DNA from: a virus | Lineage: Duplodnaviria; Heunggongvirae; Uroviricota; Caudoviricetes | Virus record (IMG/VR): IMGVR_UViG_2541047908_000008 | Location: 1-20,092 of that record | DNA length: 20,092 bases | Strand: one strand, 5' to 3' | Shown: positions 9,001-12,000 of the stretch, in pieces | How the letters are laid out: each line of letters starts with the position of its first letter | How positions within the stretch are numbered: position 1 is the stretch's first letter | Position numbers: made by a program

Positions 9001-12000
9001 AAAATCGTACTTAAGCACGGCGATCCGGTCGCTTTATCTCTTATGAGAAAAGGTCTTCTCCATCGCTCAGGTGTGACTTACAGCGCGTCAGGTAAAGAGA
9101 AATTTGTTATACCTGACGTCTGGTTCCATGAGTGTTATATGCGCTTTGCTGGTAAAGCTGATGAGCTAATTTAGTTCCTCGACGGCGGGGGATCGTTACC
9201 TCGCTGTCAGTTGTTTGGATTTCCGGTAGCCTGCCGCGTAAATGGCTACGTTTGGCAGGCAAATACTTCCACTGCATTCGTCGGTATTTTGGTTACGAAT
9301 GTTGCCGAGTGATATTGCTTTTTCAGAAAGGCTTAAACGCTTTCTCGTGCCTTTCTGAACTGGTTCCTCGCTGTCTGTTCCGAAGATCGAATCGATGATG
9401 TTGCAGATGGAATCACGCTCGATAGCCAGTTTTCTGCGCCGCTCATGACGGCGAGTTTTGGCATTTCCTGCGAATGTTGATTTTCCGTACACGATTACCG
9501 TCATGATGTTTCCCTCATGTGAAATGGCTTTGGTGGTGATGCGCCAGATGCTGATCTTCTGGTTGCTGTCGTTGCAGCTGCAATTCACATCACCGCCAAA
9601 CCCATCTCGTTTGGTATCTGTTTGCGCTTTGTCAGCGCCCCATCGAAGTTAAAGAGCCTGCCAATCTTTTCCGTTTGGCTTCCAGCGTCCTGCTGATGTG
9701 ACAATAATGAACCAATAGTTCGACATTATCAAGAACTATTGGTACGAAATTTTTGTGATTTATTAATGCTGCGAGATATGATTTTGATATATAAGGAAAT
9801 TTATTTTTGTAAATGCTGCAGATTGGTCTGTAGTTGGAGTGGTTATTGCTGGTGAGTTGGTTCGCGGTTTACCACATTTGCGGCTATTAAATATGGGAGG
9901 GCGATCGTGAGGCAAAGAAAACCCGGCGCTGAGGCCGGGGCAATAAAGTTATTCTGCGTCAATATCTTCTACGGTTAGTAGAGGGTGTACCTTATCAAGC
10001 AATTGGATGAAATCTTCATAAGTATCGCTTGCTTGCATGAGTGTTGTTACCCCTGTAAGTCTCTTTTGAAGAAGACCATATCCAGTTCCCTCTGATAGAA
10101 ACTGATGCATTTTTGCACCTGCCTTTTTTGCTTTTGCTCTTTCTTCCTTTAGCGCATTTCTTAGCTCTGGTGCCATGCGGTCATAAGTTATGTTATTCAC
10201 AAGATGACCAAAGTATTGCGGTCTCCGCATGTTTGCTTTGAATGGGACTCCTCTGAGTCTACATAACTCCTCAAAGAATTCTGGCGGATATGTGCTTACC
10301 CATGGTCGCATTTCTTTAGCGATGAATTGCTCAAGGAGTTTTGCCAGTTCATCGCGCTCTCGTTCTTTTTGGTATCCAGTCGCTTCATCAACGAGCGCAA
10401 CGGCGCCAACTCTAGCTAGAGCTTTATAGAGCGCTTTGGCTTTTGCAGCTGTATTCAAGTGATGCTTTTGTCGTAGGGCTCCATCCCTCTCAGCATCTGT
10501 CCATGCCTCGCAAAGCGCTGGTAGCATAGTAACGTCAATGCCATAAGCGACACCTGCACCTGATGTATTTTTATATACAATTGGTTCTGCTAGCGCTTCT
10601 CTTAGTTCATCAGAAATATATGGCTGAAGCTCATTTGCTTGGAGAACATATGGTAATTGACCTGGCTTCCCATTTGGTACCCATCTTGGCATTTTTGAGC
10701 CAACAGATACACCGAATGTTTCTGCCAATCCATTTGCACCTTGCATTGAAACCACTCTGCGACCATCAGGCAAAACAGCACAAGAAACACCTGTCGCCAT
10801 TAATCCTGTGTGAGTTGGCTTTGGAGCTGATCTAACGATTGCTGACATTGCTGCTGCTTTTTGAGCTCGTTTTTTAGTATCCATAAATCCCCCATATGCT
10901 TGGTTATGGTGATGATAGCTTATTTCAAATAAGCAGGGCAATGGTAGCTAAATCATCAATTAGCTACAAAATGCATCATTTTTATTTATCTCATTGATAT
11001 GTATATATTTATCGCTAAAATATTTTTAGCTATTCTGTGATTAAGCTAAATATTAATGCTAATTAATGCGTTAGCACAATGTGTGGATCACTACCAATAA
11101 AAAAGGCCGCACTTCTGTGCGACCTTTCATCATCCAAACGTCTCTTCAGGCCATTGGTTACCAGCTATGTGACGATGAAGTCACGAACTTTTCAGCCACT
11201 CCCTTGCCTCGATGTCATCCAGATGGCGGGACTGCTTCAGAATACCAGCCACATACTCCACCTTTGCTACTTGATGATAAGGCAACGTTATTGGTCTGTG
11301 GTCTTGGTTGATGCTTGTAAACTGGTATTCTCCATCTCTGTCATAGCCAAGAATCTTGATCATGTTGTGTCCTTCGATGGTTCTGACAAACACCTCATCA
11401 CCCGGGAATACTTTGGTGTTAGGCTCAATGAGTACATATTCTCCTGATTTTATTCTGGGCCACATGCTGTCTCCTTTCACACGAAGACCAAAGGCATCTG
11501 GATCATCGCTATAAATTTTGAGCCACCCATCGCGCTCTTCGGTCATCTCGATGGCACCATCAACACCAAGAATTGCCTCACCAACCACGCGCACTAACCC
11601 TTTTTTTAATTTGCCAACAAATGAAAGAGTATCTTCATCATTCGCTCCATTTAACGAAGTGCCGTGCTGAAGCCAAACAACATCAACGTTTAGAAATTTC
11701 GCAAGCGCATTCATTTTTTCCTGACGCGGTAAAGACTCAGCATTAAACCATTTGCTAACGCCTTTGGACGAAAGAGAAAGGGCACGGGCTATGGCCATCC
11801 CCCTACCATGTTCATCAAGACCAGCTTCTTTACAGGCTTGCGCTAGCCGCTGGGCGAATTCTTTGCGCACTTTTTCATTCTGAACCATGAGTACGATACT
11901 AAAGCACTTGCAAAAACTTTCAGTTCAACCATAATACGTACTGAAAGTACGAAAAAGGATATTCCTATGCAAAATCTTGATGAGCCGATTAAAGGTGTCG

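What the first reader, a model, noticed from the sequence alone, without database searches (positions are those of the whole stretch)
9913..11123. Self-contained accessory gene in the rexAB-equivalent slot between cI and pL: candidate lysogen-expressed exclusion/defence gene
In lambda the interval between cI and pL/N holds rexAB, and in 933W it holds stk; it is a classic slot for prophage-encoded exclusion systems. Here it holds one 311-aa ORF that is clearly AT-rich relative to cI and N, has its own terminator (9913-9939), and is separated from cI by a strong cI terminator (11094-11123) plus ~200 bp of AT-rich sequence. So it is an independently transcribed cassette. I cannot assign a mechanism: no nuclease, ATPase or transmembrane motif is evident to me, and a P63C-domain assignment is only a weak recollection.
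Basis: partly seen in the sequence, partly recalled or inferred. Interest (0 to 1): 0.8.

Follow-up and report, generated by a model that had tools for sequence, protein, structure and literature searches.

The report
P63C-family accessory gene beside prophage repressor
A lambda-like prophage carries, in the well-known swap-in slot next to its repressor gene, a self-contained gene for a two-part DNA-binding protein of the uncharacterised P63C family; it comes with its own promoter and matching DNA palindromes and is a plausible but untested relative-by-design of the BstA anti-phage protein.

Summary
The gene is real: a 311-aa ORF (9949-10884, minus strand) with a clear Pfam P63C domain. It lies between cI and pL/N. 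Related prophages with the same cI carry at least five other cargos in that slot.

- The downstream terminator (9911-9939) belongs to the phage backbone, not to the cargo. It also follows bstA in BTP1 and orf23 in ST104.
- Overall GC is barely lower than in cI or N. Only third-codon-position GC (0.29) and the 216-bp spacer (0.30) are clearly AT-rich.

New findings:
- The spacer holds a promoter conserved across orthologues, surrounded by TTAGCTAA-type palindromes.
- Upstream palindromes occur across much of the P63C family, and their type tracks the N-terminal domain, which recombines independently of the C-terminal half.
- The N-domain model shares its best PDB match with a BstA model.

Most likely reading: a self-regulating DNA-binding accessory protein, possibly a BstA-like defence factor whose palindromes act as a cognate self element. 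A defence function is untested. There is no PADLOC hit. Family members also sit in nin/antirepressor regions and in IS1-like elements.

The parts
11181..11888 (-). cI repressor (HTH_3 + Peptidase_S24, 235 aa); context that defines the upstream edge of the slot
   Evidence: Pfam hits. The same cI at 97-99% nucleotide identity is found with other cargos.
11094..11128 (-). Intrinsic terminator after cI: hairpin 11101-11128 plus U-run. It insulates the cargo from pRM read-through and travels with the cassette.
   Evidence: Scan. Folding gives -20.3 kcal/mol, z -6.3. It lies inside the 9903-11157 block shared at 99.6% with an ST131 prophage that has a different cI. The hairpin is conserved in orthologues.
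10885..11100 (-). AT-rich control region (216 bp, GC 0.296) holding the promoter and the palindromes
11058..11075 (.). Palindrome GCTAA-N8-TTAGC (distal operator-like site)
   Evidence: Pattern search: 4 matches in the window against 0.02 expected, 3 of them in this spacer. Column-conserved ATTAGCTAA in orthologues.
11014..11030 (.). Palindrome GCTAA-N7-TTAGC (middle operator-like site)
10947..10964 (.). Palindrome GCTAA-N8-TTAGC that abuts the -35 hexamer (proximal operator-like site)
   Evidence: AGCT cores are invariant in 7 orthologues. The same sites lie upstream of the Providencia homologue.
10912..10941 (-). Sigma-70-type promoter: -35 TTGCCC (10941-10936), 18-nt spacer, -10 TATCAT (10917-10912). 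The -10 is overlapped by a (T/A)AGCTA site at 10923-10918.
   Evidence: Scan. Positionally conserved -35/-10 with 17-18-nt spacing in 7 orthologues, for example TTGACG-17-TAGAAT in Providencia. Function is inferred.
9949..10884 (-). P63C-family gene, 311 aa. The N-module (about 1-150) is a predicted DNA-binding beta-hairpin/helical domain. The C-module (about 151-311) carries invariant D166 E167 T169 G170 Q172 R175 and the Pfam P63C domain (183-269).
9911..9939 (-). Slot-closing intrinsic terminator (hairpin 9922-9939 plus U-run). It is a backbone element shared by phages with different cargo.
   Evidence: It is 93% identical downstream of ST104 orf23 and BTP1 bstA.
9704..9732 (-). Candidate pL (TTGATA-17-CATTAT) inside a 33-bp palindrome (9711-9743); context
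   Evidence: Not tested further.
9196..9588 (-). Antiterminator N (N_peptide); the downstream edge of the slot region

Best explanation
The ORF encodes a two-module protein of the P63C family and is carried as an autonomous accessory cassette in the cI-pL slot of a lambdoid prophage.

Shown here:
- The gene, its family and the variable slot.
- A cassette (9903-11157) that moves between different immunity backbones.
- A conserved promoter flanked and overlapped by TTAGCTAA-type palindromes.
- Upstream palindromes in much of the family, whose sequence type tracks the N-terminal domain.
- Independent recombination of the N and C halves.

Inferred:
- The N-module (about 1-150, a KilA-N/APSES-like beta-hairpin fold resembling the N-domain of BstA) binds the palindromes as a dimer and autoregulates the promoter.
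- The gene is therefore expressed at a set level in the lysogen, independently of pRM.
- The conserved C-module (DEATGYQxxR plus P63C) is the effector or oligomerisation part.

Most likely role, also inferred: a single-protein, BstA-like superinfection defence. It would act on incoming phage DNA, by blocking replication or transcription, and the cognate palindrome cluster would serve as operator and possibly as an aba-like self-recognition element.

My confidence that it is an autoregulated DNA-binding accessory protein is about 0.75. My confidence that its role is anti-phage defence is about 0.4, and that figure is the one given for the whole statement.
For: Family and architecture:
- P63C at E=6.6e-23.
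- 1,568 homologues.
- 5,430 representatives at 50% clustering, nearly all 300-370 aa and matching full length.

Slot:
- Six alternative cargos lie between identical flanks.
- The exact protein is always cI -> P63C -> N, with 2 cI types.
- Homologues lie directly downstream of, and co-oriented with, the repressor in ST104, Erwinia Midgardsormr38 and S. pyogenes Javan484, and within the lysogeny cassette of Gordonia Petra.
- BTP1 carries bstA and ST104 carries a P63C gene in the same slot, before the same terminator.

Cis elements:
- GCTAA-N7/8-TTAGC occurs 3 times in the spacer against 0.02 expected in the whole window.
- Promoter and sites are conserved in 7 orthologues down to 62% protein identity.
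- In 80 species-diverse loci the hexamer GCTTGC/GCAAGC occurs 1.91 times per 350 nt upstream against 0.31 background. It is arranged as ATGCTTGC-N12-GCAAGCAT, twice, just before the start codon.
- Motif type tracks the N-domain cluster: TTAGCT in 8/8 of the window clade; GCACGT in 15/31 of a second clade; GCTTGC in the majority of most other clades.
- Mosaicism fits this. P0040 is N 26% / C 86% identical. The Providencia homologue is N 71% / C 54% and keeps the TTAGCTAA sites.

BstA resemblance:
- hhalign of the two family profiles gives a collinear 131-column match, P63C 33-188 to BstA 28-167, P=0.0017.
- The BstA domain boundary (about 155) matches the break seen here (about 150), and BstA has cognate aba elements at its 5' end (PMC8585504).
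Against: - No functional data exist for any P63C protein in the library searched.
- There is no PADLOC hit, and the BstA HMM does not match.
- Pfam KilA-N and Bro-N do not match any of 40 family members, even at E<=10.
- Only 9 of 78 viral-contig homologues have an S24 repressor as upstream neighbour. Ten have Bro-N, 7 have Dam (the 933W-type nin region) and 4 have an antirepressor domain. Many copies are therefore probably expressed in lytic growth.
- In cellular genomes 18 of 76 upstream neighbours are one IS1-like transposase family, which fits a regulatory or selfish role equally well.
- Neighbours show no enrichment of known defence genes.
- Expression in lysogens and DNA binding were not measured.
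Confidence: 0.4

Rival explanations
1. It is a phage regulatory protein of the Bro-N/KilA-N/ANT 'antirepressor-like' network. In this reading it is a sequence-specific DNA-binding regulator that tunes phage or prophage development, or acts on other resident prophages, and not a defence factor.
For: - The upstream palindromes and the covariation with the N-domain show a sequence-specific DNA-binding regulator at minimum.
- In viral contigs the commonest upstream neighbours are Bro-N proteins (10/78), and P22_AR_C antirepressor domains also appear (4/78).
- In Symbiopectobacterium the gene is flanked by a Bro-N protein and an AntA/ANT protein.
- In 933W-type Stx phages it lies in the nin region next to an antirepressor.
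- From memory, Iyer et al. 2002 defined P63C as one of the shuffled domains of these regulators. That paper could not be retrieved.
Against: - A regulator needed for phage development would not be one of at least six interchangeable cargos in the slot.
- The identical cassette works with two cI types and several N and O types, which argues against a backbone-specific regulatory target.
- Only two clusters of its sites exist in the 20-kb window, and one of them is its own promoter.
Confidence: 0.3
2. It is a selfish, addiction-type or transposon-accessory module. The protein would be a DNA-binding factor that benefits the mobile element carrying it, for example by regulating transposase or maintenance. 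The prophage copy would be just another passenger without benefit to the lysogen.
For: - 18 of 76 upstream neighbours in cellular genomes belong to one IS1-like DDE transposase family, divergently oriented.
- In 5 loci, terminal inverted repeats of at least 16 nt (GGTAGTG..TCAGTTTGAA) bound a 2.1-2.5-kb unit of transposase plus P63C gene.
- The shared intergenic region holds the palindromes.
- A small convergent gene (71-117 aa, 9 loci) ends in the same GGKARA..LTPEQR.EIA.KAA..RW motif as the N-terminus of most P63C proteins. This suggests a partner or antagonist.
Against: - The window copy has no transposase, no terminal inverted repeats and no small partner gene.
- The window clade lacks the GGKARA part of the motif.
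- IS elements also carry passenger genes with no role in transposition, so this context does not exclude defence.
Confidence: 0.12
3. It is an enzyme, a nuclease or NTPase, whose invariant DEATGYQxxR motif is catalytic and which degrades or modifies nucleic acid.
For: - Invariant acidic residues D166 and E167, with T169, G170, Q172, R175 and E191, across 40 diverse homologues.
- The hhhDEA pattern recalls a Walker B / SF1 helicase motif II (a resemblance from memory only).
Against: - No Walker A motif.
- No enzymatic Pfam, NCBIfam or PADLOC hit.
- No sequence match to any solved structure.
- The region is predicted to be all-helical.
Confidence: 0.08

Closest known systems
BstA, a prophage-encoded abortive-infection protein with an aba self-immunity element (Owen et al. 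2021, PMC8585504)
   Same: - Same genomic slot, directly downstream of cI, before the same conserved terminator and N. BTP1 carries bstA where ST104 and this window carry a P63C gene.
- Similar size, 307 against 311 aa.
- Two modules with a boundary near residue 150-155.
- The N-modules align collinearly by profile-profile comparison (P=0.0017) and share the same best PDB match, 4ye7_B, plus DdrC, Mbp1, Dachshund and Ski.
- Allele-specific cis DNA elements lie at the 5' end of the gene.
- Both are spread through diverse bacteria.
   Different: - The BstA HMM (PADLOC) does not match. Precomputed Pfam domains on the hit lists are PF26567 for BstA homologues and PF10546 only for P63C homologues, and the hhalign match stops at BstA residue 167. 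The C-terminal module is P63C.
- According to its authors, bstA presumably shares the repressor's promoter. This cassette is insulated by a terminator and has its own promoter.
- aba has terminal direct repeats (CCCGCC) and overlaps the start codon. Here the elements are palindromes around the promoter.
- No phenotype is known for P63C proteins.
Lambda RexAB, and other cargo of the cI-N slot such as 933W Stk (from memory)
   Same: Position between cI and pL/N. A lysogen-expressed accessory function is presumed for this slot, which is recognised as a mosaic hotspot (PMC8585504).
   Different: RexAB is a two-protein system with a membrane component, transcribed with cI. Here there is one soluble protein with no transmembrane segment, no sequence similarity, and its own promoter.
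Pfam PF10546 (P63C) / PHROG 2384, an uncharacterised phage and bacterial family
   Same: A member in full: the domain hit is above threshold and the alignment is full length. RefSeq already annotates the identical gene as 'P63C domain-containing protein'.
   Different: Nothing differs. The family itself has no assigned function. The N-module, the DEATGYQ motif and the cognate palindromes described here are not part of the Pfam definition.
Bro-N / KilA-N / ANT phage regulatory proteins (APSES-like DNA-binding domains)
   Same: - A beta-hairpin plus helix N-terminal module with the pattern CAVLPDGxRVxSxxG.
- Frequent genomic neighbours of these proteins.

Membership tests
Pfam P63C (PF10546) / PHROG 2384 | Match to the P63C HMM above the curated gathering score | tested here: met
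   81.6 bits against a cut-off of 26.1, E=6.6e-23, residues 183-269. All 40 aligned homologues match.
Pfam P63C (PF10546) / PHROG 2384 | Full-length collinear similarity to family members (about 300-370 aa, single architecture) | tested here: met
   PHROG 2384 matches residues 4-306 at E=6e-106. Homologues cover 90-100% of the query. Representatives match profile positions of about 1-335.
BstA abortive-infection family | Sequence membership (BstA HMM / BstA C-terminal domain PF26567) | tested here: not met
   The PADLOC BstA model does not match the window protein or three other P63C alleles, whereas BTP1 BstA matches at 1.9e-124. Precomputed Pfam domains listed for P63C homologues are PF10546 only, and for BstA homologues PF26567. 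The profile-profile match stops at BstA residue 167. The local Pfam copy did not match BTP1 BstA itself, so it gives no direct test of PF26567.
BstA abortive-infection family | N-terminal KilA-N-like DNA-binding domain | tested here: inconclusive
BstA abortive-infection family | Location immediately downstream of the prophage repressor | tested here: met
   The same slot and the same terminator as bstA in BTP1.
BstA abortive-infection family | Cognate cis DNA element (aba) at the 5' end that gives self-immunity | tested here: inconclusive
   Allele-specific palindromes exist at the 5' end and track the N-domain. Their function as operator or as self-immunity element cannot be tested here, and their form differs from aba.
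BstA abortive-infection family | Abortive infection with a block of phage DNA replication | not testable with these tools
   Needs infection assays.
RexAB-type exclusion | Two-gene system with a membrane protein (RexB) co-transcribed with cI | tested here: not met
   A single ORF between the terminators, no transmembrane segment, no PADLOC hit, and a terminator between cI and the ORF.
Known anti-phage defence systems (PADLOC-DB v2.0.0) | Match to any defence protein model | tested here: not met
   0 families at E<=1.
Bro-N / KilA-N domain proteins | Match to the Pfam Bro-N (PF02498) or KilA-N HMM | tested here: not met
   Neither family appears among the matches of 40 members at E<=10. A neighbouring gene in L005 does match Bro-N, so the model works.
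Type II toxin-antitoxin module | Adjacent small partner gene in one operon | tested here: not met
   There is no second ORF in 9940-11128 with homology or signals. A small partner-like gene exists only in IS-borne relatives.

The most novel reading that the evidence does not exclude
P63C proteins are a very widespread family (over 5,000 clusters at 50% identity, many phyla) of BstA-like single-protein defence factors. In this reading the swappable N-domain reads a specific DNA word, and the gene-proximal palindrome array is the cognate 'self' element, acting as operator plus copy-number decoy in the way aba does. In this phage the word (TTAGCTAA) is the same as the half-site of the iterons of P22-type O/gene-18 replication origins. 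That would imply defence by occupying the replication origin of competing lambdoid phages.
Probability: 0.12. Interest if true: 0.85.

Novelty: new variant of a known kind. Interest (0 to 1): 0.6.

Why it matters
The P63C domain has been a named but function-less phage domain for two decades. The identical gene is annotated only as 'P63C domain-containing protein'.

The family turns out to have three features:
- a modular build, with a swappable DNA-reading N-domain and a conserved C-module carrying an invariant DEATGYQxxR motif;
- in many members across phyla, a palindromic element at the gene's own promoter;
- recurrent residence in the repressor-adjacent slot that holds rexAB and bstA.

Together these turn the gene into a directly testable candidate for a second BstA-like prophage defence family with built-in self-recognition. 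If instead it proves to be a pure autoregulated regulator, or an accessory factor of mobile elements, that would still assign a first function to about 5,400 protein clusters. It would also explain why the family rides on prophages, satellites and IS1-like elements.

Tried and rejected
Searches that gave nothing useful:
- PADLOC, NCBIfam and sequence searches of the PDB, with a single sequence and with a profile. The designed-PPR hits have no significant stretch and are spurious.
- Foldseek against BFVD gave one significant but unnamed hit. The afdb50 library was not available.
- Pfam at E<=10 on 40 family members found no Bro-N or KilA-N.
- A homologue search with the N-domain alone returned only 2 hits and was uninformative.
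- Rfam on 9100-12100 found nothing near threshold, so the spacer is not a known RNA element.
- Literature searches found no functional study of a P63C protein. The DefensePredictor supplements do not mention P63C. The paper that defined the domain could not be retrieved. No information on the 4ye7 fold was found.
- PDB sequence searches with a Bro-N protein and with BstA, meant to identify what 4ye7 is, gave nothing.

Ideas considered and rejected:
- That the spacer palindromes are a mimic of this phage's own origin. The cassette is mostly found with O-295-type replicons that lack TTAGC iterons. The resemblance to the iterons is therefore not a built-in pairing and is kept only as an unexplained observation.
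- That the 330-aa TTG start (10941) is the real start. It coincides with the -35 hexamer and has no RBS. All close homologues start at the MD(T/N/P)KK ATG.
- That the antisense ORFs inside the gene (for example 10563-10835 on the plus strand) are genes. They have no support beyond being open.
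Full report
OBSERVATION

The minus strand carries a 311-aa ORF from ATG 10884 to the stop at 9949-9951, preceded by a GGGGGA ribosome-binding site. The 330-aa version from TTG 10941 is unlikely. That TTG coincides with a promoter -35 hexamer, and all close homologues begin at the MD(T/N/P)KK methionine.

- cI (HTH_3 + Peptidase_S24, 11181-11888, minus strand)
- cro, cII and O on the plus strand
- N (N_peptide, 9196-9588, minus strand)
- SieB (8635-9174, plus strand)

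The P63C recollection is correct. PF10546 matches at E=6.6e-23, 81.6 bits against a cut-off of 26.1, over residues 183-269. PHROG 2384 (function unknown) matches full length. PADLOC and NCBIfam give nothing.

Both terminators exist. The one after cI is strong (11101-11128, -20.3 kcal/mol, z -6.3). The one after the ORF is a six-pair GC hairpin plus U-run (9922-9939, -12.4 kcal/mol).

CORRECTIONS TO THE OBSERVATION

1. Composition. The ORF is not clearly AT-rich overall: GC is 0.440 against 0.460 for cI and 0.481 for N. Its third-position GC is low, 0.29 against 0.44 and 0.56. The 216-bp spacer has GC 0.296. A foreign origin is plausible.

2. The downstream terminator. It is not the cargo's own. 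Prophages with the same cI but other cargo are homologous to the window up to 9939 on the left and from 11129-11134 on the right (one from 11123). The stretch 9911-9939 is also 93% identical downstream of ST104 orf23 and BTP1 bstA. The swapped segment is therefore 9940-11128. The slot-closing terminator is backbone, and the cI terminator travels with this cargo.

3. Cassette mobility. An ST131 prophage with a different cI and a different N shares 9903-11157 at 99.6%. The cassette therefore moves between immunity types through the conserved linker sequences at its ends.

THE SLOT

With the same cI and pL flanks, other E. coli prophages carry one of these instead:
- a 29%-identical P63C allele placed 43 bp after cI, with no terminator between
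- an SDH Clp-fold serine protease plus a 56-aa ORF
- a DUF2335 protein
- a 126-aa hypothetical
- a 332-aa hypothetical

None of these matches PADLOC, whereas the BstA control does. The exact window protein is recorded in about 950 blocks of the assembly collection. In all eight places read it lies cI -> P63C -> N, with two cI types and several N and O types. The literature already calls this interval a hotspot of mosaic diversity that holds rexAB in lambda and bstA in BTP1 (PMC8585504).

THE PROTEIN

The family is large.
- 1,568 hits in the word-indexed search.
- 5,430 representatives at 50% clustering with E<=0.001, nearly all 300-370 aa and matching full length.
- Relatives in at least 585 species genomes across Proteobacteria, Actinobacteria, Planctomycetes, Chlamydiae, Acidobacteria and Verrucomicrobia.
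- 558 confirmed matches in viral contigs.

An alignment of 40 diverse members shows two sets of conserved residues:
- In the N-terminal part: C35, V37, L38, R43 and S46, within the pattern CAVLPDGxRVxSxxG.
- In the C-terminal part: an invariant VDEATGYQxxR block (D166, E167, T169, G170, Q172, R175), followed by the P63C region.

The AlphaFold model has mean pLDDT 78.9 and is above 85 over most of residues 20-160. It shows a three-stranded hairpin region followed by helices, and an all-helical C-half. There is no transmembrane segment and no Walker A motif.

The two halves recombine independently:
- P0040 is 26% identical in residues 1-150 but 86% in residues 151-311.
- The Providencia and Photorhabdus homologues show the reverse pattern, N 69-71% and C 48-54%.

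CIS ELEMENTS (NEW)

Sites in the window:
- The spacer contains three palindromes GCTAA-N7/8-TTAGC, at 10947-64, 11014-30 and 11058-75.
- The pattern occurs four times in the window against 0.02 expected.
- Of the 14 window matches to TTAGCTAA with at most one mismatch, 4 lie in the spacer.

Conservation in close relatives:
- I aligned the upstream regions of seven orthologues spanning 62-100% protein identity.
- The cI-type terminator hairpin, four to five (T)TAGCTA(A) sites and a promoter are conserved in position.
- The -35 hexamer reads TTGCCC, TTTACA, TTGACA, TTGCAG or TTGACG in the different orthologues.
- The spacer between -35 and -10 is 17-18 nt.
- The -10 hexamer is TAnnnT, and one of the TAGCTA sites overlaps it.
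- The sequence between these blocks has diverged.
- The Providencia copy has the same palindromes.

Across the wider family:
- In 80 species-diverse loci the hexamer GCTTGC/GCAAGC occurs 1.91 times per 350 nt upstream against 0.31 background, and 43 of the 80 loci have at least two copies.
- The copies form a recurring arrangement, ATGCTTGC-N12-GCAAGCAT followed by ATGCTTGC-N11-GCAAGCA, just before the ribosome-binding site. This holds from Rhizobiales to Brevibacterium and Simkania.
- A third clade uses TGCACGT-N5-ACGTGCA. This includes the 933W-type copy in the nin region.
- ST104 orf23 has GCAAGCA-N16-TGCTTGC.

Clustering the N-domains at 55% identity shows that the motif type follows the N-domain:
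- TTAGCT in 8/8 of the window clade
- GCACGT in 15/31 of a second clade
- GCTTGC in the majority of most other clades

Because the C-half can stay nearly constant while the motif changes, the N-domain is the likely reader of these sites. The sites sit on the gene's own promoter, so autoregulation is the simplest interpretation. Rfam finds no RNA family here. Conserved stem sequence with a variable loop also argues for protein recognition and against an RNA structure.

COMPARISON WITH BstA

Sequence membership fails. The BstA HMM does not match, and the C-terminal domains differ.

Several features do coincide:
- The slot and its terminator.
- The size and the position of the domain boundary.
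- A collinear profile-profile match of the N-modules, P63C 33-188 to BstA 28-167, at P=0.0017 but with probability only 15%.
- Both lists also contain DdrC, Mbp1 (the APSES/KilA-N prototype), Dachshund and Ski.
- BstA variants have cognate aba DNA elements overlapping the 5' end of the gene. P63C variants have cognate palindromes at theirs.

I read this as a probable shared N-terminal fold and an analogous design, not as family membership.

CONTEXTS THAT ARGUE FOR CAUTION

Repressor-adjacent, co-oriented copies occur in ST104, Erwinia Midgardsormr38 and S. pyogenes Javan484. A copy also lies in the lysogeny cassette of Gordonia Petra.

Among 78 viral-contig homologues the upstream neighbour is:
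- an S24 repressor in only 9
- Bro-N in 10
- Dam in 7
- an antirepressor domain in 4

In 933W-type Stx phages the gene lies in the nin region beside an antirepressor.

In cellular genomes, 18 of 76 upstream neighbours belong to one divergently oriented IS1-like DDE transposase family. In five loci, inverted repeats of at least 16 nt bound a 2.1-2.5-kb unit of transposase plus P63C gene. Nine loci add a small convergent gene whose product ends in the GGKARA..LTPEQR.EIA.KAA..RW motif that also opens most P63C proteins.

P63C genes are therefore autonomous units, each with its own promoter and operator, that ride on many kinds of mobile element. That fits a defence or selfish cargo, but it also fits a regulator.

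VERDICT

- The best-supported statement is that this is an autoregulated, two-module, sequence-specific DNA-binding accessory protein in the cI-pL slot (confidence about 0.75).
- Its most likely role is BstA-like defence with a cognate cis element (about 0.4).
- The main rival is a Bro/Ant-type regulator (about 0.3).
- It is a new variant of a known kind. Interest is 0.6.

Noticed in passing
window 13121-13204 (inside the O gene, 12781-13602): The presumed ori iterons are built from the same half-sites as the P63C operator-like palindromes: TTAGC-N7-GCTAA twice, with an exact TTAGCTAA at 13141. Together the two clusters hold 7 of the 14 near-matches to TTAGCTAA in the window. Only the 273-aa O type (window, L096, ST104 gene 18) has such iterons. 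The O-295 replicons that usually accompany the cassette do not. The meaning is unexplained.
   Followed up: partly
window 13599-15992: The DnaB-type helicase is 797 aa because it holds an intein with a LAGLIDADG homing endonuclease (Pfam LAGLIDADG_3, Hom_end, Hint). A contig that is 100% identical over 9001-12000 (L096) has the intein-less 458-aa helicase.
   Followed up: partly
L038 2932-5439; L044 2877-5201; L046 2875-5240; L071 2857-5068; L025 2828-4952: An IS1-like element, 2.1-2.5 kb with terminal inverted repeats starting GGTAGTG in most copies, carries a divergent DDE transposase and a P63C-family gene, with the family palindromes in the shared intergenic region. The same transposase family is the upstream neighbour in 18 of 76 cellular loci.
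   Followed up: partly
L044 4867-5157 (-), L023 4918-5151 (-), L046 4951-5199 (-), L074 2413-2652 (-) and 5 more: A small protein of 71-117 aa, convergent with the P63C gene and overlapping its stop by 4 nt, ends in GGKARAxxLTPEQRxEIAxKAAxxRW. Most P63C proteins start with this same motif. No Pfam family matches. It may be a partner or antagonist.
   Followed up: partly
L002 3347-4258; L003 3352-4425; L004 3346-3879; L100 2022-2402; L102 1791-2789: Five other uncharacterised cargos occupy the same cI-pL slot behind the same cI: a divergent P63C allele, an SDH Clp-fold protease plus a 56-aa ORF, DUF2335, a 126-aa protein and a 332-aa protein. None matches PADLOC. They form a pool of further accessory or defence candidates.
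   Followed up: partly
P0319 (460 aa) and P0343 (457 aa), from the representative search: Two longer family members replace the usual N-terminus with about 150-170 residues containing CxxC...CxxC and a TxGTVFH motif. From memory this resembles the zinc-ribbon/HTH N-terminus of IS1595-type transposases.
   Followed up: no
window 7802-8485 (-) and 8635-9174 (+): An Nmad5 (nucleotide-modification-associated domain 5) gene lies in the pL operon, and a SieB superinfection-exclusion gene is transcribed against it. The region therefore already carries at least one known exclusion function.
   Followed up: no
window 9711-9743: A 33-bp palindrome, ACCAATAGTTC-N11-GAACTATTGGT, spans the candidate pL promoter (TTGATA-17-CATTAT, 9732-9704). 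It does not obviously resemble the CGTACTTTCAGTACG palindrome between cI and cro (about 11937-11951). The operator assignment for this immunity type was not resolved.
   Followed up: no
L085 4839-5882 (Stx phage ST2-8624 gp37; the 933W L0095 type): The nin-region P63C copy of 933W-type Stx phages carries TGCACGT palindromes directly upstream of, and overlapping, its annotated start. The annotated 347-aa start may therefore be too far upstream, and the gene is an autonomous unit there too.
   Followed up: no
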